64,000 nucleotides of DNA from Candidatus Aenigmatarchaeota archaeon (GTDB lineage Archaea; Aenigmatarchaeota; Aenigmatarchaeia; Aenigmatarchaeales; Aenigmatarchaeaceae). The stretch is taken from positions 71,497 to 135,496 of the forward strand of contig JAZDKZ010000006.1 of NCBI GenBank assembly GCA_043802485.1, read 5' to 3'. Both the position numbers and the translations under genes were made by a program. The notes under the pieces were generated by a model, which searched no databases, was not told the origin of the DNA, and saw only the letters and a list, made by a program, of their open reading frames with translations. Positions 17,966 through 49,853 of this stretch are shown here, one piece after another (the stretch's first letter is position 1; each line of letters opens with the position of its first letter).

Positions 17966-19216
17966 ATGTCAAAAGAACTTGAATCTATTGGTTTGTATAA
18001 AAAGTTAATAGAATTCTCTAGCGATGCCATTATCATGGTTGATAAACTAGGCAGGTTTGCATTTGTTAATAAAAAAACTTTAGAAGTTACAGGTTATAAA
18101 GAAAAAGAATTAATAGGAAAGGGTTTTAAGAAATTAGTCCCAGCTAAACATCTTCCCAAAGCTATTGCCATGCTTAGAAAGGTGAGAAGAGGTTTAGGAA
18201 TTAAACCGTTTGAAATCGAGGTCAGAACTAAAGGTGGCGTATTGATACCATTTGAAATGAACGGTTTAGCTGTTAAAGATAAAGGAAAAAATATTGGAGT
18301 TCAAGTGATTGCAAGGGACATTACCGAGCGCAAGAAAGCAGAAGAGATTCTGAGAAAAAGCGATGAAAAATACAAGATTATATTTGAAGGAACGGCTGAT
18401 GGCATTCTTGTTGCTGATACTAAAAGCCATAGATTTATTTTTGCTAATCCCAGAATTTGTGAAATAACAGGCTATTCATTAAAAGAATTGCTTAAACTAG
18501 GAGTAGGTGATATTCATCCTAAGAAGGATTTGCCTTTTGTAATTGACCGGTTCACAAAACAAGCGCAGAAGAAAATAACTCTCGCCAGAAATATTCCTGT
18601 TCTGAGAAAAGATAAAAAAGTGGTTTATTGCGATGTCAATTCCAAACCCGTAACAATTGACGGACAAGAATATTTAGTGGGCTTCTTTAGAGACATCAGT
18701 GAACGTAGAAAAACTGAAGAAAAAATAAAATATGAAAAAGAATTTTCTGAAACTATTCTCAACATAATGCCTGTTGGATTAGATATTGTTGATAAAGATT
18801 GTATTATTCGATTTATGAATAAAACTTTCTTAGACGTTTTTGGAAAAAAGGCTTTAGGAAAGAAATGCTATGATGTTTATAAAATAAATAAAAAGCAATG
18901 TGACGGTTGTTCTTTAAAAAAACCAATAAAAATTGGTGAGACAAAAACAATAGAGGTTGGGAGTATTGTAGGCAACAAAACGTTTTTGATATCGCATACA
19001 GGGATTTTATTTAATGGAAAAAAACACATTCTGGAAGTTTTCAGGGATATCACAGAGATTAAGAAGTCAGAAGAGGTTTTGAGAAAATCACACGAAGAAT
19101 TAGAGAAATTCTACAAAGTTGCTGTAGGCAGAGAATTGAAAATGATTGAACTGAAAAAGAGAATAAGAGAATTGGAAAGTCCTAATTCAGGAAACCAAGG
19201 AGAAAGAAGAACATGA
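17966..19216 (+). CDS. cytoplasmic sensor protein with two PAS domains, a Cys-containing domain and a C-terminal coiled coil (no kinase domain)
   Basis: repeated PAS/PAC patterns ending ..VIARDITERKKAEE and ..FFRDISERRKTEE and ..VFRDITEIKKSEE; third module has C-x11-C-x2-C; 4-nt overlap with the next gene. Confidence 0.75.
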   Translation: MSKELESIGLYKKLIEFSSDAIIMVDKLGRFAFVNKKTLEVTGYKEKELIGKGFKKLVPAKHLPKAIAMLRKVRRGLGIKPFEIEVRTKGGVLIPFEMNGLAVKDKGKNIGVQVIARDITERKKAEEILRKSDEKYKIIFEGTADGILVADTKSHRFIFANPRICEITGYSLKELLKLGVGDIHPKKDLPFVIDRFTKQAQKKITLARNIPVLRKDKKVVYCDVNSKPVTIDGQEYLVGFFRDISERRKTEEKIKYEKEFSETILNIMPVGLDIVDKDCIIRFMNKTFLDVFGKKALGKKCYDVYKINKKQCDGCSLKKPIKIGETKTIEVGSIVGNKTFLISHTGILFNGKKHILEVFRDITEIKKSEEVLRKSHEELEKFYKVAVGRELKMIELKKRIRELESPNSGNQGERRT

Positions 19217-20217
19217 AAACAATAGGGATTGTTGTTATTGTTGTGATTGGGATTTTAATTGGCAGTTATTACTTCTTTGTGTATGGGGCAGACGTAACTG
19301 AAAAGCCAGCAGAACTTGAGAAAGTTACTGTAACTGCATATGAGGGGGATGTCGCTGTTCTAGTCTATATAGCAAAAGAAAAGGGTTATTTCGAGGAAAA
19401 CGGTCTTGACGTGACAATAAAAAGTTATGCTTCTGGCAGGCTTGCTGCCGATGCGTTATTAGCTGATGAAGCTGATGTCTCTACTTCAGGAGATTTTGCA
19501 TTTGTGAGCGATAGTTTCGCTAATGATGACTTGAGGGTTTTCGGCACAACATCTTACTTTGATTTATGTGAAGTGGTTGCTCGGAAAGACAGAGGCATTT
19601 CAAACCCGAGCGATTTGAAGGGAAAGAAAATCGGGGTTCTTAAAGACGGTGCTCCAGAATTCCATCTCGGGACATTCTTAATATTCAATGGTCTCTCTTT
19701 AGAGGATGTGGAAATCGTTTATTTGAGTGCCGCTGAAACAGTTGAAGCTATCATAGACGGAGAAATCGATGCCACAATGATATGGAACCCATACGCTTAT
19801 ACCATAAAGAACAGCTTGGGTGACAACGCAATAAGCTGGCCCGGTCAAAACGGGCAAAGAATGTACTTTCTGCTGCTTTGCAAGGAGAAATGGATAAAAA
19901 ATAATCCTGACACGGTTAAAAGGTTTACGAAAGCCCTTGTTGAGACAGAAGAATATGCAAAGGCCAATGAAAAAGAAGTTAAAGAGTTTACTATACATAG
20001 ATTTGGTTACGATGCTGATTATTTTGAATCCATATGGAAAGAGATTGACATTTCGGTTGAAATATCCCAGACAATGCTGGTTACATTGGAAGGCCAAGCA
20101 CGATGGAGAATTGTTAATAATCTAACAGATAAAACCGAAATCCCTAATTATTTGGATTACTTTTACACAGATGCTTTGGAAGAGGTTAAACCAGAGTCCG
20201 TAACAATAATACGCTAG
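19213..20217 (+). CDS. membrane-anchored periplasmic-binding-protein-fold protein (NMT1/SsuA/TauA-like)
   Basis: N-terminal TM helix then SBP-like pattern (LKGKKIGVLKDGAPEFHLGTFL..., IDATMIWNPYAY). Confidence 0.65.
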   Translation: MKTIGIVVIVVIGILIGSYYFFVYGADVTEKPAELEKVTVTAYEGDVAVLVYIAKEKGYFEENGLDVTIKSYASGRLAADALLADEADVSTSGDFAFVSDSFANDDLRVFGTTSYFDLCEVVARKDRGISNPSDLKGKKIGVLKDGAPEFHLGTFLIFNGLSLEDVEIVYLSAAETVEAIIDGEIDATMIWNPYAYTIKNSLGDNAISWPGQNGQRMYFLLLCKEKWIKNNPDTVKRFTKALVETEEYAKANEKEVKEFTIHRFGYDADYFESIWKEIDISVEISQTMLVTLEGQARWRIVNNLTDKTEIPNYLDYFYTDALEEVKPESVTIIR

Positions 20218-20237: not shown

Positions 20238-21863
20238 GTGAAAATAAAAAACAAACTCCTCATAGGGATTATACTCTCAATTACATTTGTTGTTATAGTG
20301 TCATCTGTAATGTTCCTGTCTAATAAAGAAATAAATAAAAAAAATAAAGAACACCAAGCGACAGATGATATACGTCTGGCTGTATCAGAGCTCGATATAA
20401 TCATGTACGAGTATCTATTGTATCACGAAGAGAGGATGATACAGCAATGGAATTCTAAATATGATTCAACAGCGAAGACTCTGGCAGAATTAGAAGAGTT
20501 AACTGTAGAAGAATCAGAAGAAGAATTAATAACATCAATACGCGATGATTATACCGTTTTTGGTGCTTTATTTTCGCAAGTAACTGCAGCTCATGACAAA
20601 AGACAGACACTCATTCAAGAAGGAGCTTCTCAAGAAGAGATCGATGAGACTGCTCGTTTAGAAGAAATAATGGTTGCCCAGATGTTAACGAGAGCACAAA
20701 GAATAATCACTAGTACCACCTTTCTTTCTGACATTTCGCACAAGAGTACGATTAGAATTCAGTCACAAAACAACGACTTGATTTCATTTTTTAGGACTAT
20801 TCTTGTTATCTCTATAACGTTTACATTGGTCCTTGTTGGCAGAAGCATCTCAAAACCCCTTGATAAACTAGTAAAGGGGGCAGAAAAAATCGGCAAAGGA
20901 AATTTCGAATATAGAATTGATGTCAAATCAAAGGATGAGATGGGAGAACTCGGTTCAGCTTTCAACAGGATGGCTGCTGATTTGAAAAAATCAAGAGATA
21001 AGACTGAGAGATACGGTGGAAGTCTTGAAAAAAAGGTTGCTGAATTGACAAAAACTAAGACTGCTATGCTAAATATGACGGAGGATTTGGACAGCACTAA
21101 CAAAAAGCTTTTAGAAACCCAGAAAGCTTTGAAAAAGAACTTTAGGTCTCTGGAAAGCTTGGACAAGGAAAAGGACGCTTTCATATCAATATCGGCGCAT
21201 GAATTAAAGACCCCGATAACTGCGATACATGGTTTTGCTCAGCTTTTGGAGAATGAAGACGTGATTAAGAATCCTGAGATGAGAAAAAAATATTTGAAAA
21301 TAATAGACCAAGAAACAAAGCGTCTGGGAAATCTGGTAACGGAAATACTTGATCTTTCTAGGATAGACCTAAATACGGTCAGGTTCACCAAAGAAAACAT
21401 AAATCTCTATGAAGTTCTGGAAAGTATAAAAGAGGAGGAAGAAACAAAAATAAAGAGTAAGGACCTTAAAATAATTCTTGATTTGCAAAAAGACCTGCCT
21501 ATTATCTATACTGACAAAGAAAAAGTCACACAGGTATTAATAAACCTAATAGACAACGCTATGAAATACACTCCAAAGGGGGCTATAACAGTCAAAGTGA
21601 TTAGGAAAGGGGATGGCATTCAGGTTTCAGTGTCTGATACAGGCTTGGGCATACCAAAGGAAAGTTTCAAAAAAATATTTACCAGATTCTATCAAGTCGA
21701 CTCTTCCTACACAAGGAAAGTTGGCGGTTCGGGGTTGGGCCTTTCCATCTGCAAGGAGTTTATCAATGCGCTTGGTGGTAGGATATGGTTTGAAAGCAAG
21801 GTTGGAAAGGGCAGCACGTTCTATTTTACTTTACCGATAAGAACAAGACGTAAAAAATTATGA
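20238..21863 (+). CDS. sensor histidine kinase (TM - extracytoplasmic helical region - TM - HAMP - HisKA - HATPase_c)
   Basis: HAMP SKPLDKLVKGAEKIGKGNFEYRIDVKSKDEMGELGSAFNRMAADL; H-box SAHELKTPITAI; N/G boxes LIDNAMKYT, DTGLGI, GGSGLGLSI; GTG start. Confidence 0.9.
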   Translation: MKIKNKLLIGIILSITFVVIVSSVMFLSNKEINKKNKEHQATDDIRLAVSELDIIMYEYLLYHEERMIQQWNSKYDSTAKTLAELEELTVEESEEELITSIRDDYTVFGALFSQVTAAHDKRQTLIQEGASQEEIDETARLEEIMVAQMLTRAQRIITSTTFLSDISHKSTIRIQSQNNDLISFFRTILVISITFTLVLVGRSISKPLDKLVKGAEKIGKGNFEYRIDVKSKDEMGELGSAFNRMAADLKKSRDKTERYGGSLEKKVAELTKTKTAMLNMTEDLDSTNKKLLETQKALKKNFRSLESLDKEKDAFISISAHELKTPITAIHGFAQLLENEDVIKNPEMRKKYLKIIDQETKRLGNLVTEILDLSRIDLNTVRFTKENINLYEVLESIKEEEETKIKSKDLKIILDLQKDLPIIYTDKEKVTQVLINLIDNAMKYTPKGAITVKVIRKGDGIQVSVSDTGLGIPKESFKKIFTRFYQVDSSYTRKVGGSGLGLSICKEFINALGGRIWFESKVGKGSTFYFTLPIRTRRKKL

Positions 21864-22079
21864 AGCGAGTTTAATCTTATATTTTTTGTAAATCGGCGTA
21901 AATTTAGCTTTAGCCGTCTCCTCTCCCGTCAGTCTTGATAAGAAGAATGTGCACTCATCTAGGAAATCTTTTGGATATTTCTCTGGGTCTTCAAAGGAGT
22001 CTAGCTGCTTGGCTACCATTTCTCCCAACAGCTCTCCTATAACTTTTTTCGCATCATTTTTCAAAGTCAAGACATGCAC
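21858..22079 (-). CDS. hypothetical small soluble protein
   Basis: 73-aa ORF, last gene of the TM-protein operon; no motif recognised. Confidence 0.35.
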   Translation of the reverse strand: MHVLTLKNDAKKVIGELLGEMVAKQLDSFEDPEKYPKDFLDECTFFLSRLTGEETAKAKFTPIYKKYKIKLAS

Positions 22080-22083
22080 CTTA

Positions 22084-23205: not shown

Positions 23206-23305
23206 AAAAAGTATTTGTCAAGGCCGTACTTAAAAGATAGTTTTTATATGCTCGCAAGTAACAAATTATTTTATATATTCGCTTGAATAACAATTAAGTG
23301 TTTTA

Positions 23306-23674
23306 ATGGCCAAGAAAATAATGGTTGTGGACGACGAGATAAACATAGCAGAACTTGTCAAAGCTATACTTGAGCATGAAGGGTTCGAGGTTATAGGACT
23401 GAATAACGGACAAGCGTGCTTGGAGAAATTGAAAACAGTCAAACCGGACCTGATACTCATGGACATGATGATGCCTAGGATGAGCGGACGAGAAACAACA
23501 GAAAAAATAAGGGCCAACCCAAAAACCAAGAACATCAAAGTTGCATTTCTAACCGTGGCAAGGTTCTCTGAAGTGGGCAAGGGTAAGCTAAGGGATTTGA
23601 ACGTCTCGGATTACATCACAAAGCCTTTTGATAATAACGACTTGATAGAGCGCGTGAAGAAGGTTGTCGGCTAA
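23306..23674 (+). CDS. single-domain response regulator (CheY-like receiver)
   Basis: IMVVDDE, phospho-acceptor LILMDMMMPRMSG, conserved T (FLTV) and K (YITKPF). Confidence 0.9.
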   Translation: MAKKIMVVDDEINIAELVKAILEHEGFEVIGLNNGQACLEKLKTVKPDLILMDMMMPRMSGRETTEKIRANPKTKNIKVAFLTVARFSEVGKGKLRDLNVSDYITKPFDNNDLIERVKKVVG

Positions 23675-24210
23675 TCAAGATCCATTGTTTTGTCTGCAAA
23701 CATTTTCAAGTCATTGATTAATTCTCTATTTTCTTTTTCTGGAACACTGTCACTTTTCAGAGCAATGAAAATTTTTTTGACATCTTCATTCTTGTTAGTT
23801 AAGCCATGAGTAAATTGAAGTACAGAGAAGCTTTCTTGATATATCAATAAAGCAGATATTGTGTCAAAAAGCAAGACGTTGCATTTTTGCTTTTTGATTA
23901 CATTCTCTATTGCCCGCTTGATCATTTTTATGTTGTTTGGTGAGCTGACAAACGTACAATTCCTATGCGATTTTAATTTTTCATAATGGCTGCTTAGAAC
24001 ATCAACAAAGAAGAAGAATTTTGTATTTATTTTGTTTTTCCTCAATTCGTTCAAGACATCTTTATATGGCCTGCTTAGGCACACATAGCATATCTTGCTC
24101 TTTGATTTCTCTACAGATAGGACTATCTTGTTTAGCTGATTCATGTATTGTGCTTCGCTTAGCAAAATAAGTAAGAACTTGTTCTGGGTTGTTTCTTTTA
24201 TAATATTCAC
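23671..24210 (-). CDS. KaiC/RecA-fold-like protein lacking a Walker A motif (probably inactivated)
   Basis: 179 aa; strand-helix pattern of KaiC-like domains (ICYVCLSRPYKDVLNEL..., VLLFDTISALLIY, IFIALK) but no GxxGxGKT; GTG start with GGAG 11 nt upstream. Confidence 0.45.
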   Translation of the reverse strand: MNIIKETTQNKFLLILLSEAQYMNQLNKIVLSVEKSKSKICYVCLSRPYKDVLNELRKNKINTKFFFFVDVLSSHYEKLKSHRNCTFVSSPNNIKMIKRAIENVIKKQKCNVLLFDTISALLIYQESFSVLQFTHGLTNKNEDVKKIFIALKSDSVPEKENRELINDLKMFADKTMDLD

Positions 24211-24246
24211 TTAAGACAACTCCTTTTAAATATTACAATTAAGCTA

Positions 24247-24293
24247 GTATAAACATATATGTTTAAACATATAGAATTATGTTTAAACATATA
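24247..24293. promoter_or_regulatory. putative operator: two palindromes centred on GTTTAAAC plus a third half-site
   Basis: TATATGTTTAAACATATA (24256..24273, perfect 18-nt palindrome) and TATGTTTAAACATA (24278..24291), centres 20 bp apart; related gtATAAACATATA at 24247..24259; sits in a divergent intergenic region. Confidence 0.5.
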
Positions 24294-24329
24294 AGTAATA
24301 TATATAAATATAGAAAATAATAGTTTAAT

Positions 24330-24449
24330 ATGTCAATTCTCCATTACGGTAACACTACAAAAAACGGAGAGACACTGAACAGATCAAAGAATCATCTTTC
24401 TGAAAAAAACAACGAACTAAACGGGGCTATCGAATTTGTCGGGTATTGA
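24330..24449 (+). CDS. 39-aa mini-ORF (possible precursor/leader peptide), translationally coupled to the UbiA gene
   Basis: MSILHYGNTTKNGETLNRSKNHLSEKNNELNGAIEFVGY; TATATAAATA box about 25 nt upstream of the ATG; its TGA stop overlaps the next ATG (TGATG). Confidence 0.3.
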   Translation: MSILHYGNTTKNGETLNRSKNHLSEKNNELNGAIEFVGY

Positions 24450-25246
24450 TGATGAAAGATATAACCAGAAACTTGGTAGGCTTTATAAGACTTAAAGTCT
24501 GCATTTTCATAAGTACGATAGGAATTATCGGGTTTCTTCTTTTCAACAATATTGGTGTTAAGCTGTTATTTGTCTTTTTGGCGTCGTTCCTGATATCCGC
24601 TGGCTCCTATTCCTTGAACAACCTGACAGACACTAAGGAAGACATGATAAACAGAAAAAAAATCAATCCCTTTGTTCTTGGTAAGAGGGGCTTTATACTG
24701 GTTTCTCTCCTTTTTCTTTCTGGACTGTTTTTTTCAATGTTTCTGTCTTTTTATTCAATCGTATTTTCTTTGATAGGAATTCTGACGAGTATACACTATT
24801 CCTACTTTAAGCTCAAGAAATATTTTTTGGTGAAAAATCTTTACACCGGTTTTGGAATCAGCATAGTGTTTTTGGTCGGCACCAGCAAAATAGGTCTCGA
24901 CGTTTTGTACTATTACTTTCTAATCCTGTTTTTCATTGTGATTATGAGTATGATTTCTGATCTTAGAGACTATGTTGGAGACAAGGCGATTGGTTTCAAA
25001 ACTCTCCCAGTTTTTTTGGGATACAGCAGAGCATTGAAAATAGTATCTGCGTTGATAAGCATATTTTCGTCGTCTCTTCTCCTTTTTAGTCGCATTATAA
25101 TCCTTCTGCCTTTTTCTCTGGCAATAATGTATTCCCTTTACAAGAACAAACCTTTGGTTTCGCATACTTTGGGTTTGTATTCCTTTATTTTTCTAATGTT
25201 TTGGTTAGTTCTAGGAAGTGTGTTTAATGTGTATGGTTACGTTTGA
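24449..25246 (+). CDS. UbiA-family membrane prenyltransferase
   Basis: 8-9 TM helices; Asp-rich motifs NNLTDTKEDMINR and DLRDYVGDKAIG. Confidence 0.8.
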   Translation: MMKDITRNLVGFIRLKVCIFISTIGIIGFLLFNNIGVKLLFVFLASFLISAGSYSLNNLTDTKEDMINRKKINPFVLGKRGFILVSLLFLSGLFFSMFLSFYSIVFSLIGILTSIHYSYFKLKKYFLVKNLYTGFGISIVFLVGTSKIGLDVLYYYFLILFFIVIMSMISDLRDYVGDKAIGFKTLPVFLGYSRALKIVSALISIFSSSLLLFSRIIILLPFSLAIMYSLYKNKPLVSHTLGLYSFIFLMFWLVLGSVFNVYGYV

Positions 25247-26276
25247 GTGGGACAATTGTGACGCAAGGGAGAAGGTAAGAAAATTTGAAATGACAAATTC
25301 TCTAAGCTGGGTAGTTTTGGAGCTTACAAGCCTTTGTAATTTTAACTGTGTTTGGTGTTACGCTAATTCGAATACTCATGGTAGTCATATGAGTAAGAAA
25401 GATTCAAAAAGAATCATTCGTTTGCTAGCCGACAATGAAATAAGACAGATCACTTATTCAGGGGGAGAACCTTTGATGTACCCTTACATCAAGGATGTTG
25501 TGAGAGAAGCCCATGAGTATGGTATGGTTGTTCACATGAATACAAACGGCTACTTTCTAACAAAAAAGATTGCCGAGGAGTTGCGAAGACTTGGTCTATC
25601 TCAAGTTCAGATAGACATTGATAGCCTAAAATCTGAAACACATGACAGAATACGAGGTAAAAGCAACTCTTTCTATAGGGCGGTTAACGCATTAAAAAAT
25701 GCGAAAGAGGTTGGTATAACATGTGTTTGTCAAACAGTATTGACCAAAGTCAATGAAAAGGAAGTTTTAGACATATTCAAATTTGCCCGCAGTTTAGGAA
25801 TACAGCGTTGCAGGGTTTCTGACATGACTCACGAAGGCCGCGCGACAGAAAAGTCGGATATGAGACCGACTGATTATATGAAAACTCTTCAGAGTCTTTC
25901 TGGATTTTCACACAATACAGGTGTAAAAAGCATAGAATGTGGTGATCCTATATTTCCTTTGAACTATAAAGATGAGACTGAGATTACGGGAGGTTTTTGT
26001 CCTGCAACAAAAGGCATGTTTACTCTTATTTCTAATCATGGCGGTGTTTATTTTTGTGGCGTATACAGAAAATTACTATACAATGTTTTTAATCTCATAG
26101 AACATGGAGAAAATTTGAAAGAATTTCACAAGATGAGACTCGAAAAGTTCTTAGAAAGCAATATTCCTTCCAAGTGCGGAGGCTGTAGGCATTACAAAAT
26201 TTGCCGTGGCGGCTGTCCTGCCAGACGGGATTGCGAGAAAGATATCGTTGATTACTGGTGCAATAACTTTAATTAA
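25227..26276 (+). CDS. radical SAM enzyme with C-terminal SPASM domain
   Basis: CNFNCVWC (Cx3Cx2C) cluster motif, GGEPLMYP, C-terminal CGGCRHYKICRGGC (Cx2Cx5Cx3C); start uncertain (25218/25227/25290); overlaps the UbiA 3' end. Confidence 0.85.
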   Translation: MCMVTFEWDNCDAREKVRKFEMTNSLSWVVLELTSLCNFNCVWCYANSNTHGSHMSKKDSKRIIRLLADNEIRQITYSGGEPLMYPYIKDVVREAHEYGMVVHMNTNGYFLTKKIAEELRRLGLSQVQIDIDSLKSETHDRIRGKSNSFYRAVNALKNAKEVGITCVCQTVLTKVNEKEVLDIFKFARSLGIQRCRVSDMTHEGRATEKSDMRPTDYMKTLQSLSGFSHNTGVKSIECGDPIFPLNYKDETEITGGFCPATKGMFTLISNHGGVYFCGVYRKLLYNVFNLIEHGENLKEFHKMRLEKFLESNIPSKCGGCRHYKICRGGCPARRDCEKDIVDYWCNNFN

Positions 26277-27291
26277 AATAAGTTATTACCAGTTTACCAT
26301 GCTTGCATTTCTTATCATTTATTCTGAATTTTTTATCAATAAGCCACAGATAACCTAAAATCACTTCTGCTAAAAAATCCCAGTTATCTTCTTCTATCTG
26401 CATTCCATGCGGCAGGTTACTTATTTCGAATAAAATTCTATTTTTTTTGTTTATTATATTCACGACGCCCCAACCCATAGAATGGAGTAAGGTTTTAATC
26501 ATATTGAGTTTCTTGTCGCATGATGATTTTTTTATTATAATCTGTCTGAAGAAATCGTAAGATATTTTCGGTACTTTGTCCAAGAGTATTTTTCTATTGC
26601 CTAGTATATGAAATCCGGTATTTTCCACATACCACAAGTCCTTTCCTCTGAAAAGGATTCTATTTGAATCCCCCTTTAGCTGAAATATGCCAGACTCCAG
26701 GACACTTTTCAATGTTATTCCCTTCGATCCAGAAGAGAGATTTAGTCTGTCATACTGCTCTTTTTTCTTTGATGGTAGAGGTGAGAATTTTTTATCTAGC
26801 AATTCGTAGAAATACCTGCAGCTTTTTCTCGTCTGTATTTTTTTACTACAAAACACTTGAGAACTGAATAAAACATTTAGTATGCCTGCATAAAAACCTG
26901 TCAGACACTCATTCTTTCCTATTAGCCTTGTTACAGTCTCTTCTCTTGTCTCTATTAGAATCTTGTTGTTTTTTTTGATAGCGTGCAGGTCTGAAAGCAG
27001 ACCCAGATTTATCCAAACCTTTTTCATTATATTATTCAGAAAGAATATCGGAGTTCTTTTGAAAATGTTAGGAACCATTCTGTCCATAACAAGATTCATC
27101 CATTTCTGCCCAATCTCGGCTATTTCAGCTTCATGACCAGAATTTTCGCATAATTTTACATAATTTGCTATAATCTCTTCAAAAATTAAGACGTTTCTTC
27201 TACTTTTTATTTTGAATCTGTTTGTAATCCATCCAGTATTAGTCTGTATTAGATTTTTTCTTATAGAAACGGATAGCCTCATATCAAACAA
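26269..27291 (-). CDS. double V4R-like domain protein (putative small-hydrophobic-ligand binding)
   Basis: 340 aa; GKNECLTGFYAGILNVLFS...CRYFYEL resembles the V4R C..G..G...C pattern; second half GIFQLKGDSNRILFRGKDLWYV...MGWGVVNI... is a weaker repeat; 8-nt overlap with the upstream KaiC-like gene. Confidence 0.5.
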   Translation of the reverse strand: MFDMRLSVSIRKNLIQTNTGWITNRFKIKSRRNVLIFEEIIANYVKLCENSGHEAEIAEIGQKWMNLVMDRMVPNIFKRTPIFFLNNIMKKVWINLGLLSDLHAIKKNNKILIETREETVTRLIGKNECLTGFYAGILNVLFSSQVFCSKKIQTRKSCRYFYELLDKKFSPLPSKKKEQYDRLNLSSGSKGITLKSVLESGIFQLKGDSNRILFRGKDLWYVENTGFHILGNRKILLDKVPKISYDFFRQIIIKKSSCDKKLNMIKTLLHSMGWGVVNIINKKNRILFEISNLPHGMQIEEDNWDFLAEVILGYLWLIDKKFRINDKKCKHGKLVITYFN

Positions 27292-27958
27292 TCTTGGCGG
27301 TCGATAATTTTAAGCCTTTTTTGTTGATGAACAATTCGTGATTCACTCTCGGGTCAAAAGACGTATAACGAAGTTTGCAAATCTCCAGCGTCCTTTTGGG
27401 TTTCTCCTCAAGGTCCAGGAAGGATATGTGCAAGACGCCGTCGACCTCGAACGACTCGCTGTTCCCGCTATCAATGTCTTCTCCAACAGTCTCGCAAATG
27501 AGCAGGCTGCATTTAGATTTCTCCTTCAGATACTTTATTATGTCCGACAATTTTATCCTGTATTCCTTCTTGTTCTTGGCGTGCATGAGAATCTTGTTGA
27601 CGTTGTCTATGACAAGCCTGTCCACTTTGGGATATTCCAGGAAAAGCTTTGCCAGCTGCTCTAGGTTTATTTTCTCGCCCAGGGGCAGGCATTCTATGAG
27701 CAGGTTCTTGTCTATGTAATTTTTCGCTTTTTTAAGGCTGGTTATGCTTTCGCATGCTCTTAGTAGCTCTTCCTTGCTCTCTGAAACAGAAAGATAATAG
27801 CACCTTTCTCCCTTTGCAGCGCCCTCGACTAAGAAGTTTAAACCTATCAAAGTTTTTCCTGTGCCAGGGCCACCGGAAAGAAGAATAACAGTTCTAGAGG
27901 GAAACCCACCTTCTGTCAACTTATCCAGTCTTGGCAAACCTGTTGTTATTCTCATCAT
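27284..27958 (-). CDS. single-domain KaiC/RadA-like ATPase
   Basis: ITTGLPRLDKLTEGGFPSRTVILLSGGPGTGKTLIGLNFL (Walker A) and RLVIDNV (Walker B-like). Confidence 0.85.
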   Translation of the reverse strand: MMRITTGLPRLDKLTEGGFPSRTVILLSGGPGTGKTLIGLNFLVEGAAKGERCYYLSVSESKEELLRACESITSLKKAKNYIDKNLLIECLPLGEKINLEQLAKLFLEYPKVDRLVIDNVNKILMHAKNKKEYRIKLSDIIKYLKEKSKCSLLICETVGEDIDSGNSESFEVDGVLHISFLDLEEKPKRTLEICKLRYTSFDPRVNHELFINKKGLKLSTAKIV

Positions 27959-28281
27959 TCATCACCAAATACAGGCTTTCCTATCGTTGATTCCTGTAGT
28001 TTTATTAAAAGAAACTTTTCATCGCCCAAGTCAAAGACTTGTGACGGCGCCTTTTTTATAAGACTTATGTCATGCCTTTTCAGTATCTTGTTGGGCAGCA
28101 TTATTCTGTTGCTGTTGCCTAGCTTTCCGGTTGTAAGCGACTCGCTCAATATGCTCATCTCAGTGGGCAACAACAGGAGCTTTTTAGTGGACTGCTTCAA
28201 AAGACCATACTCTTTTTTCGTCAGCTCAAGCTTAACAAGAATCTTGTCGTTTTTCATATCCATGGAGTCTATATTTGCCAT
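27955..28281 (-). CDS. putative AbrB/SpoVT-type DNA-binding protein
   Basis: 108 aa; NRIMLPNKILKRHDI resembles the swapped-hairpin AbrB motif; first gene of the AbrB-KaiC-V4R operon (4-nt overlap). Confidence 0.45.
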   Translation of the reverse strand: MANIDSMDMKNDKILVKLELTKKEYGLLKQSTKKLLLLPTEMSILSESLTTGKLGNSNRIMLPNKILKRHDISLIKKAPSQVFDLGDEKFLLIKLQESTIGKPVFGDE

Positions 28282-28374
28282 AGTTTATATATTTGGAAGA
28301 TATATTTAAATAAAATGTATTGTTTGTTAACATTTTAATAATAGATGATTTATTGTATTATTATGCTGATGACT

Positions 28375-28746
28375 ATGGCCAAGAAAATAATGGTTGTGGA
28401 CGACGACGAGATTATGATAAACCTCGTGAAAGATGTTTTGGAGCAAGGTGGGTTCGAGGTCATTGACGTAAACAACGGGCAAGCGTGCTTGGAGAAATTG
28501 AAAACAGTCAAACCGGACCTGATACTCATGGACATGATGATGCCAAGGATGAGCGGACGAGATACGGTAGACAAGATAAGAAAAAACCCACATACCATGG
28601 ACTTGAAGATAGCGTTTCTAACGGTGGTCAGATTCACTGACTTGGGAAAAGATACCTTGAAAGACCTAAACATTTCAGACTATATAACAAAGCCGTTCAA
28701 CAACAACGACCTTATCGCGAGAGTAAAAAAAATTGTAGGACAATAA
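28375..28746 (+). CDS. single-domain response regulator (CheY-like receiver), paralog of 23306..23674
   Basis: IMVVDDDE, LILMDMMMPRMSG, FLTV, YITKPF; start set to MAKKIMVVDD by comparison with the paralog. Confidence 0.9.
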   Translation: MAKKIMVVDDDEIMINLVKDVLEQGGFEVIDVNNGQACLEKLKTVKPDLILMDMMMPRMSGRDTVDKIRKNPHTMDLKIAFLTVVRFTDLGKDTLKDLNISDYITKPFNNNDLIARVKKIVGQ

Positions 28747-28747
28747 A

Positions 28748-29362
28748 ATGTTACAGGAATATAAAATCCAATTATTGAGGACTTTCTGGGAGAGCTGTGT
28801 CGAGGATGCGATAAAGGCACTCTCCATAATGATTAAGAGTGATGTGAAGAAAACTAGAACCATCATAAAAGTAAGCAACTTGAAGGAAATACCGAAGATG
28901 ATGAACCCCGAAGAGATAACCACAACCCTTGTCTATACAAAGGTTCCTGAGCAGATAAAATTCGTGATCATGTTCTCCTCGTCGCTTAGGGGCTTCCTGA
29001 ACCTCATAAACATGCTGCTGAACAAAAAGATTGACTATTATACCGCGCTGAACGAGGACAACGAACCGGTTATGGTGGAGTTTGGCAACATAATAAACGG
29101 CTATTTTGTCTCTTCCCTTGACAGGGTGTTCGGCAAGGATTTGAACTACCAGGATGCCGTGATATCGACCAATCCCTTCAGGGCCGTGGAGGATTTCGGA
29201 ATGGGCAACATATACAAGGAAAAGGTCAAGGTCCTCGTCTTCAGGACAGACTTTAGTGTAAAGAACGAAAACGTAGAGGGCAAGATGTTCCTGTTGGCTG
29301 AAGAGAAAAAACTGGATGTCCTTTTAGAGGAGATAAGCAGGAACATACGTTTTAAAGCTTAG
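28748..29362 (+). CDS. CheC-like protein (CheY-P phosphatase family), one intact motif
   Basis: 204 aa; second repeat has E-x2-N (MVEFGNIINGYFVSSL); first repeat is degenerate; 1-nt gap after the response regulator. Confidence 0.6.
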   Translation: MLQEYKIQLLRTFWESCVEDAIKALSIMIKSDVKKTRTIIKVSNLKEIPKMMNPEEITTTLVYTKVPEQIKFVIMFSSSLRGFLNLINMLLNKKIDYYTALNEDNEPVMVEFGNIINGYFVSSLDRVFGKDLNYQDAVISTNPFRAVEDFGMGNIYKEKVKVLVFRTDFSVKNENVEGKMFLLAEEKKLDVLLEEISRNIRFKA

Positions 29363-31699: not shown

Positions 31700-31751
31700 T
31701 TTATCAGTTAGTAATTGTTATTTGAAGAATAAAAAAATTTCTAGACTCGAA

Positions 31752-48487: not shown

Positions 48488-49219
48488 ATGCCAAAGAAAG
48501 CTTCCGTTAAAGGTTCTTCTAGTGGTTCTGATTTTGAGAGGATTCCCTCTGGGATACCTGGTCTGGATGAATTGATGGAGGGAGGCTTCCCGAAAGGTTC
48601 TACTAATCTGGTTTCTGGTGCTGCCGGTACGGGCAAGACCATTTTCTGCTCACAATTCATTTGGGAAGGCCTACAGAAAGGTGAATCGTGTATGTATATC
48701 ACATTAGAGGAGAGACCGCAAGACATAATGGATGATGTCAGTAGGTTTGGCTGGGATTTTGAGCCGTATATTAAGGAAAAGAAGCTTTTCTTGGTCTATC
48801 AGGACCCGTTCCAGATGACTGATGTTACTTCTCCTCTGTTGGATGAGATCAAGCAGAAGAATGTTCAGCGAGTTGTTATCGACTCTACAGCCATTTTTGG
48901 CATGTACTACAAGGAGCCGTTCGAGATTAGGAAGCAGTTGTTCAAGCTTCTGAACGGTCTGAAGGACATTGGGGTCACCAGCGTCATAACCTCCGAGCTG
49001 CCTGAGGAGACGAACCAGCTTGCCAAGTTCGGTGTCGAAGAGTTTGTGGTCGACGGCGTCATTATTCTGAGATATATCGGCATAGGTGGGGAAGATTTTG
49101 TGAATCTGCAGGTCAGGAAGATGAGAAGAACCAAGCATGCTAACGCATGGTTCCCCATGACAATATCAGATAAAGGTATTCGGATAAAGAAAGAAGAACG
49201 AAGAGTATTAATGAAGTGA
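48488..49219 (+). CDS. single-domain KaiC/RadA-like ATPase
   Basis: IPSGIPGLDELMEGGFPKGSTNLVSGAAGTGKTIFCSQFI (Walker A), RVVIDST (Walker B-like). Confidence 0.88.
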   Translation: MPKKASVKGSSSGSDFERIPSGIPGLDELMEGGFPKGSTNLVSGAAGTGKTIFCSQFIWEGLQKGESCMYITLEERPQDIMDDVSRFGWDFEPYIKEKKLFLVYQDPFQMTDVTSPLLDEIKQKNVQRVVIDSTAIFGMYYKEPFEIRKQLFKLLNGLKDIGVTSVITSELPEETNQLAKFGVEEFVVDGVIILRYIGIGGEDFVNLQVRKMRRTKHANAWFPMTISDKGIRIKKEERRVLMK

Positions 49220-49223: not shown

Positions 49224-49853
49224 ATGGGGCTTTCCTTAATAACAAAACTTTTGATTTCAAAGCAGCTTAGATTCGAAGATGGTAGGATAGTGTTCTTAGA
49301 GGAACCCATGGCTTTTGTTCCAATTGAGTTTTATATTCATTTAACAAAGGAGATAAACAAGAAAAGAAGAGACAAGATGGAGGTGTATTTGGATGCATGG
49401 AAGGCTGGAGTCATTTTCATGCGTAGTGTAGCAAAGAGATACACCATGAGTAGGTTTGAGGAAAGGTACAATGAGGCTATGGAAATAATTTCCTCCGCAG
49501 GTTTCGGCGACTATCAGACTTTGGATTTTGTACCTACTAAATATGCTCAATTTAAGATATTCAACAATCCGATAGCAGAAAAATTCTTTCCCTCCAAGAA
49601 ACCAATAGATCATGTATTGCGGGGCTTCAACGCTGGAGGGGGTTCCCCGGTTCACGAAAGAATCATTAATACTATTGAAACAGAATGCAAGGCTGTTAAT
49701 GGCAAATACTGTATACACCTAAACGGTGCTACTGAGGTGCTGAAGCAGGCCAAGTACAAGAAATTTGTAAAGGACCAACTAGACTTGCCATTTCTATTAA
49801 AAGAACAGAAAAAATTCCTCAAAGAAATAAATTACAAAGAGATAAAGCCCTAG
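49224..49853 (+). CDS. V4R-domain protein
   Basis: LRFEDGRIVFLEEPMAFVPIEFY N-terminal pattern and GFGDYQ...VLRGFNAGGG...ETECKAVNGKYCIHL V4R core. Confidence 0.6.
   Translation: MGLSLITKLLISKQLRFEDGRIVFLEEPMAFVPIEFYIHLTKEINKKRRDKMEVYLDAWKAGVIFMRSVAKRYTMSRFEERYNEAMEIISSAGFGDYQTLDFVPTKYAQFKIFNNPIAEKFFPSKKPIDHVLRGFNAGGGSPVHERIINTIETECKAVNGKYCIHLNGATEVLKQAKYKKFVKDQLDLPFLLKEQKKFLKEINYKEIKP

What the first reader, a model, noticed from the sequence alone, without database searches (positions are those of the whole stretch)
23306..29362. KaiC-centred signalling island bracketed by two CheY-like paralogs
Between two paralogous single-domain receivers (23306..23674 and 28375..28746) lie the following: a Walker-A-less KaiC-fold protein, a palindromic operator, a mini-ORF-UbiA-radical SAM operon, and an overlapping AbrB-like -> KaiC-like ATPase -> double-V4R operon. 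The second receiver is followed 1 nt later by a CheC-like protein with one intact E-x2-N motif. No CheA, CheW, MCP or archaellum genes are present in the window. Established: archaeal KaiC-like ATPases have been proposed from comparative genomics to act as signalling hubs. Inference: here a KaiC/V4R module, a two-component branch (the HK lies at 20238..21863) and a CheY/CheC pair seem wired together around a membrane prenyltransferase/radical SAM output. This combination has not been characterised.
Basis: partly seen in the sequence, partly recalled or inferred. Interest (0 to 1): 0.65.

Follow-up and report, generated by a model that had tools for sequence, protein, structure and literature searches.

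The report
Conserved KaiC–V4R–prenyltransferase gene cluster
The island is real: it is one copy of a gene cluster conserved in tiny DPANN archaea that ties a KaiC-type ATPase, a hydrophobic-ligand-binding protein and a small DNA-binding protein to a membrane prenyltransferase operon carrying its own palindromic operator, while the CheY/CheC genes are later, lineage-specific additions.

Summary
The core of its idea survives comparison with other genomes.

**Conserved core.** AbrB-like -> KaiC-like ATPase -> a 337-aa tandem V4R/TRAPPC3-fold protein (X340, a family with no Pfam model), next to a UbiA prenyltransferase.
- These four genes are linked in essentially every assessable locus: 31 genomes and 74 distinct metagenome contigs.
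- The labelled records are mostly DPANN archaea (Aenigmatarchaeota, Altiarchaeota and others).

**Operator.** The palindrome TGTTTAAACA is conserved, with 22 sites observed against about 0.75 expected. It sits mostly 30-70 nt upstream of the first gene of the enzyme operon.

**Variable enzyme arm.** The partners of UbiA differ between loci: radical SAM/SPASM, IPMS-like synthase plus a second UbiA, polyprenyl synthase, or a GGR-like reductase.

**Two-component branch.** A PAS / histidine kinase / receiver / inactivated-KaiC branch lies nearby in about half of the loci.

**Late or occasional additions.** RR2 and the mini-ORF are seen only in the window and its closest relative. The CheC-like gene recurs only occasionally.

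**Second module.** The window also holds a simpler KaiC -> V4R |<- UbiA module (48488-50734). It is conserved in 6/6 other contexts, among isoprenoid-lipid genes.

**Proposed mechanism.** I propose a KaiC/V4R sensor of a hydrophobic prenyl ligand that controls isoprenoid output through the AbrB-like protein. This step is inferred, not shown.

The parts
17966..19216 (+). PAS-only sensor protein (416 aa), first gene of the two-component arm
   Evidence: Pfam PAS_9 1e-34, three PAS stretches. PAS proteins lie beside the HK in 15/31 related loci.
19213..20217 (+). NMT1/THI5-like periplasmic substrate-binding protein
   Evidence: Pfam NMT1 3e-32. It overlaps the PAS gene's stop codon and lies 20 nt upstream of the HK.
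20238..21863 (+). Membrane histidine kinase (HAMP-HisKA-HATPase_c)
   Evidence: Pfam. Orthologues (49-58% id) lie next to the RR1-type receiver in 16/31 loci.
23306..23674 (+). RR1, a stand-alone receiver and the ancestral receiver of the cluster
   Evidence: Response_reg 2e-26. Orthologues are 64-73% identical and always beside the inactivated KaiC and/or the HK.
23671..24210 (-). Inactivated KaiC-fold protein (iKaiC, DUF835-like, no Walker A)
   Evidence: DUF835 1e-4, FlaH 2e-5. 0/11 orthologues have Walker A. It is adjacent to the receiver in any orientation in L005, L006, L009, L021, L024, L025, L026 and L030. REC-DUF835 fusions are known (PMC5847659).
24249..24296 (.). Operator: two ATGTTTAAACAT palindromes 20 bp apart, between iKaiC and the UbiA operon
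   Evidence: The 10-mer TGTTTAAACA occurs 22 times against 0.75 expected in the related loci. 21/22 are intergenic and lie in promoters of the cluster's genes. Replicated in 73 independent metagenome loci.
24330..24449 (+). 39-codon mini-ORF / 5' leader of the UbiA operon (doubtful as a gene)
   Evidence: The ORF is visible. A similar N-terminus is seen only in the closest relative L003 and in no other locus.
24446..25246 (+). Divergent UbiA-family prenyltransferase (266 aa)
   Evidence: PF01040 2e-21. The nearest solved structure is M. jannaschii DGGGP synthase, 1.6e-10. A UbiA-family gene is present in 28/31 genome loci by tblastn; L005 has two by ORF analysis and L002 and L015 are cut off. 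It is present in 22/23 assessable metagenome loci.
25218..26276 (+). Radical SAM / SPASM enzyme, overlapping the UbiA stop
   Evidence: PF04055 2e-31. Full-length similarity to SPASM enzymes (GeoRSP, NirJ2, AhbD) lies below their cut-offs. Present in 14/31 genome loci.
26269..27291 (-). X340: tandem V4R/TRAPPC3-fold protein. The probable true start is 27282, giving 337 aa.
   Evidence: AF2 pLDDT 91. Foldseek hits are AxCeSD, Bet3/TRAPPC3, H-NOX and MopR. The family has 237 clusters at 50% identity among 1.84e9 proteins and no Pfam model.
27284..27958 (-). Single-domain KaiC-like ATPase (active motifs)
   Evidence: PF06745 1e-35. Best PDB matches are KaiC CII domains, 7e-30. Walker A is kept in 29/29 orthologues. 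It lies directly downstream of AbrB in 60/60 assessable metagenome loci.
27955..28281 (-). AbrB/MazE-like small protein, the candidate DNA-binding regulator
   Evidence: Invariant LTTGKLGNSNRIMLPKKIL motif. 10/27 orthologues hit PF04014 weakly. Its stop overlaps the KaiC start (ATGA).
28375..28746 (+). RR2, a lineage-specific duplicate of RR1
   Evidence: 74% identical to RR1. It is absent at this position in the closest relatives L003 and L032.
28748..29362 (+). Divergent CheC/CheX-like protein with one E-x2-N site
   Evidence: NCBIfam CheC 4e-15 over the full length; T. maritima CheC alignment. The family has 7 proteins. It lies beside AbrB-KaiC in L003, L032, L081 and L094, and after a receiver in L033.
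48488..49219 (+). Second module: KaiC-like ATPase (243 aa)
   Evidence: PF06745 2e-65. 29% identical to the first KaiC-like ATPase.
49224..49853 (+). Second module: V4R-type 'hydrocarbon-binding' protein (209 aa)
   Evidence: 28% identical (E 2e-10) to a protein in L021 that has a Pfam V4R domain. JGI names its homologues 'predicted hydrocarbon binding protein'.
49850..50734 (-). Second module: more canonical DGGGP-synthase-like UbiA (294 aa), convergent with the V4R gene
   Evidence: PF01040 8e-30; PRK12884 2e-35; MjDGGGPS 2e-17. The KaiC-V4R-UbiA arrangement is conserved in L034-L039.

Best explanation
**What it is.** The region is one instance of a conserved archaeal gene cluster, found mainly in DPANN lineages. 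Its obligate core has four genes:
- an AbrB/MazE-like small protein;
- an active single-domain KaiC-like ATPase;
- a tandem V4R/TRAPPC3-fold protein (X340);
- a membrane UbiA prenyltransferase.

The UbiA operon also carries interchangeable isoprenoid or tailoring enzymes. In this window that enzyme is a radical SAM/SPASM enzyme.

**Proposed mechanism (inferred).**
1. X340 binds a hydrophobic prenylated substrate or product of the UbiA operon in the cavities typical of its fold.
2. Ligand binding changes the ATPase or autophosphorylation state of the KaiC-like protein.
3. The KaiC-like protein sets the activity of the AbrB-like protein.
4. The AbrB-like protein binds the TGTTTAAACA palindromes that overlap the core promoter of the enzyme operon. 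In some genomes the same palindrome also lies upstream of the AbrB-KaiC operon and of iKaiC or receiver genes.
5. The result is feedback control of isoprenoid or prenyl-lipid output.

**Second input (inferred).** A two-component branch feeds external signals into the same hub:
- PAS protein, binding protein and histidine kinase -> RR1;
- RR1 -> the inactivated KaiC paralogue encoded next to it.

**Additions specific to this lineage.** A duplicated receiver (RR2) and a CheC/CheX-like protein, presumably a receiver phosphatase, were added to that branch.

**What is shown and what is inferred.**
- Shown: gene families, folds, linkage, operator conservation and operator position.
- Inferred: who binds the operator, the ligand, the direction of signal flow and the chemical product.
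For: **Linkage anchored on X340 (31 genome loci)**
- AbrB + KaiC present in 28/31. The other three loci are cut at the contig edge.
- UbiA-family present in 28/31 by tblastn. L005 has two by ORF analysis, and L002 and L015 are cut off.
- Order and orientation are kept despite rearrangements (L014, L029) and despite X340 identities of only 30-57%.

**Linkage anchored independently on AbrB (74 distinct metagenome loci)**
- KaiC: 60/60 assessable.
- X340: 45/46 assessable.
- UbiA-family: 22/23 assessable.

**Taxonomic spread**
- Record titles span Aenigmatarchaeota, Altiarchaeota, Nanohaloarchaeota-labelled, Micrarchaeota, Iainarchaeum and Hydrothermarchaeaceae MAGs.

**Operator**
- 22 exact sites against 0.75+-0.62 expected; 21 are intergenic.
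- With one mismatch allowed, sites lie 27-70 nt upstream of UbiA or IPMS-like first genes in about 17 loci, and upstream of AbrB in about 6 loci.
- Replication in independent metagenome loci: 14 sites, all intergenic, 11 of them 36-54 nt upstream of the enzyme operon.
- The motif is absent from AbrB-less module-2 loci.

**X340 fold**
- pLDDT 91; matches to TRAPPC3, V4R (MopR), H-NOX and AxCeSD.
- Structural work describes this fold as having cavities for hydrophobic ligands such as palmitate and phenols (PMC10933270).

**KaiC and iKaiC**
- Walker A is kept in 29/29 KaiC224 orthologues and lost in 0/11... that is, none of the 11 iKaiC orthologues has it.

**Isoprenoid context**
- Polyprenyl synthase (L021, L026).
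- GGR-family reductase (L013).
- UbiE-like methyltransferase (L005).
- A second UbiA.
- IDI2 and IPK nearby.

**Independent paralogous module**
- KaiC -> V4R |<- UbiA occurs in this window and in 6/6 other contexts, next to polyprenyl synthase, GGR-like and mevalonate-kinase-type genes.
Against: - No experiment or co-folding connects AbrB108 to the operator. Its AbrB assignment rests on a motif and weak Pfam hits, and the single-sequence model was useless (pLDDT 40).
- The palindrome contains TTTAAA and sits where an archaeal TATA/BRE would be, so it could itself be a specialised promoter element.
- The operator is also found at iKaiC, receiver and MGMT-like promoters, so another factor could be the binder.
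- Module 2 keeps KaiC-V4R-UbiA without AbrB or the operator. This fits a direct, non-transcriptional role of KaiC/V4R with the prenyltransferase at least as well.
- The product of UbiA266 is unknown. It scores far below every NCBIfam equivalog cut-off.
- The two-component arm is within the flanks in only about half of the loci.
Confidence: 0.55

Rival explanations
1. KaiC and the V4R-fold proteins are not transcriptional signalling parts. They form a working accessory of the prenyltransferase. The V4R-fold protein would carry or present hydrophobic polyprenyl or lipid substrates (or extract products), powered or gated by the KaiC-like ATPase. AbrB would merely be the local repressor of module 1.
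For: - The simpler module 2 (KaiC -> V4R |<- UbiA) has no AbrB or operator, yet is conserved in 7/7 contexts among GGPP-synthase and GGR-like genes.
- X340 stays convergent with the UbiA/rSAM operon even when it is separated from AbrB-KaiC (L014, L029).
- TRAPPC3 binds palmitate in its cavity, and a ligand-transport role was suggested for archaeal TRAPPC3/V4R proteins (PMC10933270).
- From my own knowledge (not tested here): the V4R protein BchJ has been proposed as a substrate carrier in bacteriochlorophyll synthesis.
Against: - KaiC-family single-domain ATPases with known roles act as regulators or assembly factors (ArlH, GvpD; cited in PMC5847659). No carrier role is known for them.
- AbrB, KaiC and X340 are translationally coupled in most loci.
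- The operator ties this operon and the enzyme operon into one regulon.
Confidence: 0.3
2. The UbiA-radical SAM/SPASM pair with the upstream mini-ORF is a RiPP-type peptide maturation cassette. The mini-ORF would be a precursor peptide that is cross-linked and prenylated, and KaiC/V4R/AbrB would be its regulators.
For: - SPASM radical SAM enzymes are often peptide maturases. The nearest solved structure is SkfB (3e-19).
- A 39-codon ORF ends at the UbiA start.
Against: - The mini-ORF is recognisable only in the closest relative L003, which lacks the radical SAM gene. No comparable ORF exists in the other 13 rSAM-bearing loci, and the gene spacing there leaves no room for one.
- The rSAM gene is replaced by IPMS-like, polyprenyl synthase or GGR-like genes in other loci.
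Confidence: 0.05
3. The CheY-like/CheC-like pair marks a cryptic chemotaxis or motility control system, with KaiC acting like the archaellum protein ArlH.
For: - CheC-like protein: NCBIfam CheC 4e-15, one E-x2-N site.
- ArlH/FlaH models give weak hits to both KaiC-fold proteins.
Against: - No CheA, CheW, MCP, CheB/R or archaellum families appear in 50 scanned window proteins or among the neighbours seen in related loci.
- Both receivers score far below the CheY equivalog cut-off (59-63 bits against 200). KaiC224 scores 31.7 bits against 215 for ArlH.
- CheC is absent from most loci.
Confidence: 0.03
4. The arrangement is chance synteny inherited among close relatives, or a mobile or defence island.
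For: - LAGLIDADG ORFs lie nearby.
- There is a generic pVip-like radical SAM hit.
Against: - Linkage holds at 30-57% protein identity across several phyla, and from two independent anchors.
- The PADLOC hits are only to the radical SAM core or to a P-loop.
- The flanking genes are housekeeping genes (RNase Z, CCA enzyme, AP endonuclease).
Confidence: 0.02

Closest known systems
KaiC-like ATPase 'signal transduction hubs' of archaea (Makarova, Galperin & Koonin 2017, as cited in PMC5847659 and PMC6393860; the paper itself could not be read here)
   Same: - A single-domain KaiC-family ATPase sits next to predicted sensor and output proteins.
- An inactivated KaiC paralogue (DUF835-type iKaiC) is paired with a receiver domain, as in the REC-DUF835 fusions.
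   Different: - The neighbourhood here has a defined four-gene core with an enzymatic partner (UbiA), a new tandem V4R-fold family and a specific conserved operator.
- I found no description of this combination in the searchable literature. I cannot exclude that the 2017 paper lists part of it.
V4R / TRAPPC3(Bet3) / H-NOX ligand-binding fold (Podar et al. 2008, PMC2253512; Asgard TRAPPC3 structures, PMC10933270; MopR/PoxR phenol sensors)
   Same: - X340's two domains match exactly this set of structures.
- The fold is known to hold hydrophobic ligands in an internal cavity and to dimerise. A tandem repeat would mimic the dimer.
   Different: - There is no sequence match to Pfam V4R (PF02830).
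- The family has a single invariant Cys, not the four-Cys zinc site described for PoxR and Thor-TRAPPC3.
- It is a two-domain fusion genetically tied to KaiC and UbiA, rather than to sigma-54 activators or TRAPP subunits.
Archaeal DGGGP synthase and other UbiA-family prenyltransferases (M. jannaschii DGGGPS, PDB 6M31)
   Same: - Pfam UbiA membership.
- Both Asp-rich motifs are readable in the sequence.
- DGGGPS is the nearest solved relative of both window UbiA proteins.
- GGPP synthase, GGR-like, IDI2 and IPK genes occur in related loci.
   Different: - UbiA266 is very divergent (55 bits against a cut-off of 296 for the DGGGPS equivalog).
- It co-occurs in the same window with a more canonical DGGGPS-like paralogue.
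- Its partners (SPASM radical SAM, IPMS-like synthase, aminotransferase, UbiE-like methyltransferase) are not those of core lipid synthesis.
CheC/CheX/FliY CheY-P phosphatases
   Same: - Full-length similarity to Thermotoga CheC.
- A conserved second-site E-x2-N motif.
- A receiver gene directly upstream in the window and in L033.
   Different: - The first active site is degenerate, which resembles CheX.
- There is no chemotaxis context.
- The family is very small (7 proteins).
- It scores far below the family cut-off (56 bits against 250).
SpoVT/AbrB (MazE) swapped-hairpin DNA-binding proteins
   Same: - A G-x-x-R-[IV]-x-[IL]-P-x-x-[IL] type motif.
- Small size.
- Position as first gene of a regulatory operon.
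- An AT-rich palindromic candidate operator.
   Different: - The motif lies in the middle of a 108-aa protein that has an extra N-terminal region.
- The partner is a KaiC ATPase, not a toxin.
- Membership is statistically unproven.

Membership tests
KaiC family ATPase (PF06745) | Pfam score above the gathering threshold, and intact Walker A/B motifs | tested here: met
   123.7 bits against 26.6. GGPGTGKT is present, and Walker A is kept in 29/29 orthologues. Best PDB matches are KaiC CII domains.
Circadian KaiC (double-domain clock protein) | Two tandem KaiC domains (about 500 aa) and a score above the equivalog cut-off | tested here: not met
   224 aa with one domain. PRK09302 scores 89 bits against 408, and TIGR02655 scores 50 against 546.
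ArlH / RadB (KaiC-like proteins of known function) | Score above the NCBIfam equivalog cut-off | tested here: not met
   ArlH 31.7 bits against 215; RadB 31.2 against 172. No archaellum genes are in the window.
Inactivated KaiC / DUF835 (iKaiC) | KaiC-like fold signal with loss of the P-loop, and association with a receiver domain | tested here: inconclusive
   DUF835 scores 22.3 bits against a cut-off of 33.1; FlaH 2e-5. Walker A is absent in the window protein and in all 11 orthologues. Adjacency to a receiver is conserved. The fold itself was not modelled.
V4R domain (PF02830) | Sequence match to the Pfam model | tested here: not met
   X340 has no Pfam hit even at E<=10 and no hhalign link to the window's V4R-type 209-aa protein.
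V4R / TRAPPC3 / H-NOX superfold | Two-layer alpha/beta fold matching solved members | tested here: met
   AF2 pLDDT 91.3. Foldseek probability is about 1 for AxCeSD, TPC6/Bet3, MopR (191 columns), H-NOX and Thor-TRAPPC3. E-values are only 2e-3 to 5e-2 and TM-scores on the target are 0.45-0.61. Ligand binding was not tested.
SpoVT/AbrB (PF04014) | Sequence or fold match to the swapped-hairpin domain | tested here: inconclusive
   The window protein has no hit. 10/27 orthologues hit PF04014 with a best E of 0.0028, while no other family exceeds 2/27. hhalign to B. subtilis AbrB aligns the motif without significance. The AF2 single-sequence model has pLDDT 40.
CheC/CheX/FliY phosphatases | Family score above the cut-off; E-x2-N active site(s); chemotaxis gene context | tested here: inconclusive
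   56 bits against a cut-off of 250, but the alignment is full-length at E 4e-15. The second site EFGN is intact and kept in 5/6 homologues; the first site is degenerate. There is no che context.
CheY (chemotaxis response regulator) | Equivalog-level score, and linkage to CheA/CheW | tested here: not met
   CheY_Halo scores 59-63 bits against 200, and PhoB/OmpR-type receiver models score higher. No CheA or CheW was found. Both proteins are generic stand-alone receivers with intact phospho-acceptor residues.
UbiA prenyltransferase superfamily (PF01040) | Pfam score above threshold, and two Asp-rich motifs | tested here: met
   76.8 bits against 34.2. NNLTDTKED and SDLRDYVGD are readable in the sequence.
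DGGGP synthase (equivalog) | Score above the NCBIfam equivalog cut-off | tested here: not met
   UbiA266 scores 55 bits against 296. UbiA294 scores 105-122 bits against 269-296. The substrate is not testable here.
Radical SAM / SPASM enzymes | CxxxCxxC cluster motif and the C-terminal 7-Cys SPASM motif | tested here: met
   PF04055 at 110 bits. CNFNCVWC and C-x13-G-x4-C...CGGCRHYKICRGGC...C are readable. No equivalog cut-off is reached.
RiPP biosynthetic cluster | A conserved precursor peptide gene next to the maturase | tested here: not met
   The mini-ORF is conserved only in L003, which has no rSAM gene.
Known anti-phage defence systems (PADLOC) | Match of the core proteins to defence models | tested here: not met
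   Only the generic radical SAM core matches pVip, plus weak P-loop and receiver hits.

The most novel reading that the evidence does not exclude
KaiC-like ATPase + V4R-fold protein pairs may be dedicated partners of UbiA-type prenyltransferases in DPANN and neighbouring archaea. Together they would form an ATP-dependent sensor or handler of polyprenyl or ether-lipid intermediates that governs membrane-lipid or prenyl-metabolite synthesis.

The pairs would exist in two paralogous versions per genome:
- one embedded between GGPP synthase, a DGGGPS-like UbiA and a GGR-like reductase;
- one elaborated with an AbrB-type regulator, a private operator, two-component input and variable tailoring enzymes.

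This would give KaiC-like 'hubs' their first concrete metabolic output. It would also give a handle on how genome-reduced archaea control their membranes.
Probability: 0.3. Interest if true: 0.8.

Novelty: new variant of a known kind. Interest (0 to 1): 0.62.

Why it matters
Archaeal KaiC-like ATPases are abundant, and comparative genomics has proposed them as signalling hubs. Apart from the archaellum and gas-vesicle cases, however, they lack defined inputs, outputs and DNA targets.

This cluster offers all three in one compact, testable unit:
- a candidate ligand sensor (the tandem V4R fold);
- a candidate DNA-binding output with a precisely defined 10-bp palindromic operator;
- an enzymatic target (a UbiA prenyltransferase operon).

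It also has a natural 'minimal' paralogue (KaiC-V4R-UbiA) sitting among isoprenoid-lipid genes.

It occurs mainly in DPANN archaea, where the source and control of membrane lipids is an open question (my own knowledge, not checked here). So it could bear on lipid homeostasis or on a prenylated metabolite used in host interaction.

If the mechanism is instead ordinary local repression, the result is still a well-delimited new gene family (X340) and a new regulon.

Tried and rejected
- **Sequence searches of X340 and AbrB108 against PDB.** Single sequence and profile searches found nothing.
- **Pfam and NCBIfam at permissive E-values for X340 and AbrB108.** Nothing was found.
- **AlphaFold of AbrB108.** The single-sequence model was unusable (pLDDT 40).
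- **hhalign of the window's 209-aa V4R-type protein against the X340 profile.** No relationship was detectable. The two V4R-fold partners are therefore linked only by fold class and gene context.
- **Mini-ORF as a conserved precursor peptide.** Rejected.
- **Riboswitch or other known RNA in the leaders.** No Rfam match at E<=1 in 17000-34000.
- **Defence-system reading.** Rejected.
- **Chemotaxis reading.** Rejected: no che or archaellum genes, and the receivers are generic.
- **Makarova et al. 2017 (mBio).** Not held in the library, so I could not check whether any part of this neighbourhood is listed there.
- **Identifying the chemical product from enzyme families.** No NCBIfam equivalog cut-off was reached for UbiA266 or the rSAM enzyme (the accessory enzymes also stayed below cut-offs). 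The tetrapyrrole reading (NirJ/AhbD-like rSAM + ChlG-like UbiA + V4R) and the ether-lipid reading both remain open. The lipid/isoprenoid context is better supported.
- **Sigma-70 promoter and terminator scan.** Not informative for an archaeon.

Full report
**1. What is in the window**

- **Two-component arm, + strand.** A PAS-only protein (17966-19216), an NMT1-like binding protein (19213-20217) and a HAMP-HisKA-HATPase kinase (20238-21863). After four small minus-strand ORFs comes the stand-alone receiver RR1 (23306-23674).
- **Inactivated KaiC.** Convergent with RR1 is a 179-aa protein (23671-24210) with only weak KaiC-fold signals (DUF835 1e-4, FlaH 2e-5) and no P-loop.
- **Intergenic region and enzyme operon.** A 235-bp intergenic region follows. 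Then come a divergent UbiA prenyltransferase (24446-25246) and an overlapping radical SAM enzyme (25218-26276), which carries a readable CxxxCxxC motif and a full SPASM cysteine motif.
- **Regulatory operon, convergent with the enzyme operon.** A 108-aa protein (27955-28281), a 224-aa KaiC-family ATPase (27284-27958; PF06745 1e-35; Walker A GGPGTGKT) and a 337/340-aa protein (26269-27291; 'X340').
- **Divergent from that operon.** RR2 (28375-28746), which is 74% identical to RR1, followed 1 nt later by a 204-aa CheC-like protein (28748-29362).
- **Absent genes.** None of the 50 window proteins I scanned belongs to a CheA, CheW, MCP or archaellum family.
- **Other negatives.** There is no Rfam match in 17000-34000 and no PADLOC defence signature.

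**2. The three uncertain annotations**

*X340.*
- It has no Pfam, NCBIfam or PDB sequence match.
- With an alignment of 32 family members, AlphaFold gives a confident model (pLDDT 91.3, pTM 0.91) with two tandem alpha/beta domains.
- Foldseek against the PDB returns AxCeSD/BcsD, TRAPP Bet3/TPC6/Trs33, YslB, H-NOX, the MopR phenol-sensor domain and Thorarchaeota TRAPPC3. Probabilities are about 1, but E-values are only 2e-3 to 5e-2.
- A structural paper describes exactly this set as one fold family with internal cavities for hydrophobic ligands: palmitate in TRAPPC3 and phenols in PoxR (PMC10933270).
- So 'double V4R' is correct at fold level and wrong at Pfam-family level.
- The family is rare: 237 clusters at 50% identity among 1.84 billion proteins. 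All carry the name 'hypothetical'.

*The 108-aa protein.*
- An alignment of 27 orthologues shows an invariant LTTGKLGNSNRIMLPKKIL block. This has the G-x2-R-[IV]-x-[IL]-P signature of SpoVT/AbrB-MazE domains.
- 10 of 27 members hit PF04014 weakly, while no other family collects more than two.
- Profile searches of the PDB, hhalign against B. subtilis AbrB and a single-sequence AlphaFold model were all uninformative.
- I treat it as a probable AbrB/MazE-type DNA binder, unproven.

*The CheC-like protein.*
- It aligns end to end with the Thermotogales CheC model (4e-15, far below the cut-off) and with T. maritima CheC.
- Only the second E-x2-N site is kept (EFGN, residues 111-114); the first is degenerate.
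- Its family is very small, with 7 proteins.

**3. The neighbourhood is conserved**

*Anchored on X340.* A scan of one genome per GTDB species with the X340 alignment returned 31 loci. tblastn of all window proteins against them gives:

| Gene | Loci of 31 | Note |
|---|---|---|
| AbrB -> KaiC | 28 | the other three are cut at the contig edge |
| UbiA-family | 28 | L005 has two UbiA genes by ORF analysis; L002 and L015 are cut off |
| Radical SAM | 14 | |
| IPMS/homocitrate-synthase-like | 13 | usually with a second UbiA |
| Receivers | 17 | |
| Kinase | 16 | |
| PAS proteins | 15 | |
| P-loop-less KaiC | 13 | |
| Second, divergent KaiC upstream of AbrB | 13 | |
| CheC | 1 | |

- X340 identities are only 30-57%.
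- Record titles name Aenigmatarchaeota, Altiarchaeota, Nanohaloarchaeota, Micrarchaeota, Iainarchaeum and, outside DPANN, Hydrothermarchaeaceae.
- The window's closest relative is an Aenigmatarchaeota MAG (L003; RNase Z 86% identical).

*Anchored on AbrB.* A metagenome scan with the AbrB alignment gave 74 distinct loci.

| Gene | Present / assessable loci |
|---|---|
| KaiC directly downstream of AbrB | 60/60 |
| X340 | 45/46 |
| UbiA-family | 22/23 |
| Radical SAM or IPMS-like | 15/18 |

The four-gene core is therefore obligately linked from both directions. Rearranged loci (L014, L029) keep X340 convergent with the UbiA operon.

**4. A conserved operator**

- The intergenic region 24211-24445 holds two perfect ATGTTTAAACAT palindromes 20 bp apart. 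They are the only two in the window even with one mismatch allowed.
- Across the window plus the 31 genome loci (530 kb), the 10-mer TGTTTAAACA occurs 22 times against 0.75+-0.62 in first-order Markov simulations. 21 of the 22 are intergenic.
- With one mismatch allowed, sites lie 27-70 nt upstream of the following genes:
  - the first gene of the enzyme operon (UbiA or the IPMS-like gene) in about 17 loci;
  - AbrB in about 6 loci;
  - iKaiC genes in about 10 loci.
- In 73 metagenome loci that do not share AbrB DNA with the genome set (403 kb) there are 14 exact sites. All are intergenic, and 11 lie 36-54 nt upstream of the enzyme operon.
- Eight loci without the AbrB-linked UbiA operon (L032-L039, about 57 kb) contain not even the 8-mer core.
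- The position overlaps where an archaeal BRE/TATA would lie. The site is thus either a repressor/activator operator on the core promoter or a specialised promoter element. In either case it is specific to this regulon.

**5. The enzyme arm is variable but isoprenoid-flavoured**

Besides UbiA, different loci carry the following:
- the SPASM radical SAM enzyme;
- an IPMS/homocitrate-synthase-like enzyme plus a second UbiA;
- a class I/II aminotransferase, inserted between KaiC and X340 in five genome loci;
- a geranylgeranyl-reductase-family flavoenzyme (L013);
- a polyprenyl-synthetase-like protein in the slot of the rSAM gene (L021, L026);
- a UbiE-like methyltransferase (L005);
- in one clade, type-2 IPP isomerase and isopentenyl-phosphate kinase across the operator-bearing intergenic region.

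UbiA266's nearest solved relative is M. jannaschii DGGGP synthase (1.6e-10), but it is far below every equivalog cut-off. The product cannot be named. A prenylated lipid or small molecule is the safest statement.

**6. A second, simpler module in the same window**

- At 48488-50734 lie a KaiC-like ATPase (PF06745 2e-65), a 209-aa protein and, convergent with it, a more canonical DGGGPS-like UbiA.
- The 209-aa protein is related to a Pfam-V4R protein (28% identity, E 2e-10). JGI names its homologues 'predicted hydrocarbon binding protein'.
- The UbiA scores PRK12884 2e-35 and MjDGGGPS 2e-17.
- A Nudix gene and a TrmB regulator follow.
- Six homologues of the 209-aa protein (39-67% identity) all sit in the same KaiC -> V4R -> UbiA arrangement. 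Polyprenyl synthase is adjacent in three, GGR-like flavoenzymes in three, and a GHMP (mevalonate-type) kinase in one.
- At least three genomes carry both modules: the window, the genome of L003, and the genome of L019/L037.
- The recurrence of KaiC + V4R-fold + UbiA in two non-orthologous versions is the strongest argument that the three work together.

**7. The two-component and CheC parts**

- The RR1-type receiver (64-73% identical) and the P-loop-less KaiC are adjacent in co-directional, convergent or divergent orientation in eight genome loci, usually next to the HK and PAS genes.
- This matches the REC-DUF835 ('iKaiC') fusions catalogued by Galperin et al. 2018 (PMC5847659). A receiver-to-iKaiC contact is therefore a reasonable inference.
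- RR2 is less similar than RR1 to all foreign orthologues (54-66% against 66-73%). It is also missing between AbrB and CheC in the two closest relatives (L003, L032). It is a lineage-specific duplicate.
- CheC-like genes lie beside AbrB-KaiC in five loci:
  - divergently in the window, L003 and L032;
  - co-directionally, at only 30-33% identity, in L081 and L094.
- Once, in L033, a CheC-like gene follows a V4R protein and an RR1-like receiver.
- CheC is therefore a recurrent but minor accessory. In many other loci its slot upstream of AbrB is occupied by a second KaiC gene.

**8. Interpretation**

*Shown:* families, fold, obligate linkage, operator conservation and position, and the isoprenoid context.

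*Inferred:*
- X340 senses, or alternatively carries, a hydrophobic prenyl compound.
- The KaiC ATPase transduces this signal.
- The AbrB-like protein binds the palindromes.
- The HK-RR1-iKaiC branch, trimmed by the CheC-like protein, provides external input.

*Main rival:* KaiC/V4R act directly on or with the prenyltransferase rather than through transcription. This is favoured by the AbrB-less module 2.

*Rejected or disfavoured:* the RiPP, chemotaxis, defence and chance-synteny readings.

**9. Novelty and score**

- All parts belong to known superfamilies, and the idea of KaiC-centred signalling neighbourhoods is published.
- The new elements are the defined four-gene core, the X340 family, the operator, the enzymatic output and the paralogous lipid-cluster module.
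- I found none of these in the searchable literature. The key 2017 paper could not be read.
- I rate it a new variant of a known kind, with interest 0.62.

Noticed in passing
window 48488-51978: A second KaiC-like ATPase -> V4R-type protein |<- DGGGPS-like UbiA <- Nudix <- TrmB module. The KaiC-V4R-UbiA triad is conserved in 6/6 other contexts, next to polyprenyl synthase, GGR-like and GHMP-kinase genes.
   Followed up: yes
window 30641-31699 (-) and 3386-4258 (+): Free-standing LAGLIDADG endonuclease ORFs. The one at 30641-31699 sits between the LigD_N phosphoesterase and RNase Z genes, and no such ORF lies at that spot in the closest relatives L003 and L032.
   Followed up: partly
window 21858-23205 (-): A 73-aa protein conserved beside the receiver in L026 and L030, followed by three small membrane ORFs (112, 110, 154 aa) with no family. 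They separate the histidine kinase from RR1 only in this window.
   Followed up: partly
L004 6264-8324, L008 10880-13818, L066 4988-7765: In loci labelled Altiarchaeota (L004, L008) and in metagenome locus L066, the cluster is followed by tandem arrays of three to six stand-alone receiver genes that end in an inactivated-KaiC gene.
   Followed up: no
L007 12967-15475; also L009, L010, L013, L016, L054-L057, L060: A block of an MGMT-like DNA-binding protein, a 128-aa protein, type-2 IPP isomerase and isopentenyl-phosphate kinase lies divergent from UbiA. It shares the operator-bearing intergenic region, with the palindrome about 50 nt from both start codons.
   Followed up: partly
L008 4770-5457: Two small ORFs (128 and 102 aa), which by eye resemble a HEPN / minimal-nucleotidyltransferase pair, are inserted between the KaiC and X340 genes. 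This assignment was not checked with any family search.
   Followed up: no
L006, L009, L011, L012, L021, L024, L026, L030 (upstream of AbrB); 13/45 metagenome loci: A second, active-looking KaiC gene (PF06745 5e-47) lies divergently upstream of AbrB. The window has no orthologue, and that slot holds RR2-CheC instead.
   Followed up: partly
L068 / L070: The only AbrB-KaiC loci with enough downstream sequence that lack X340 and UbiA. About 3 kb further on they instead carry a V4R-type gene and another KaiC gene on the opposite strand.
   Followed up: no
window 43561-46781: Two large adjacent ORFs. The 559-aa ORF has no Pfam family. The 513-aa ORF has only a sub-threshold AP_endonuc_2 hit.
   Followed up: no
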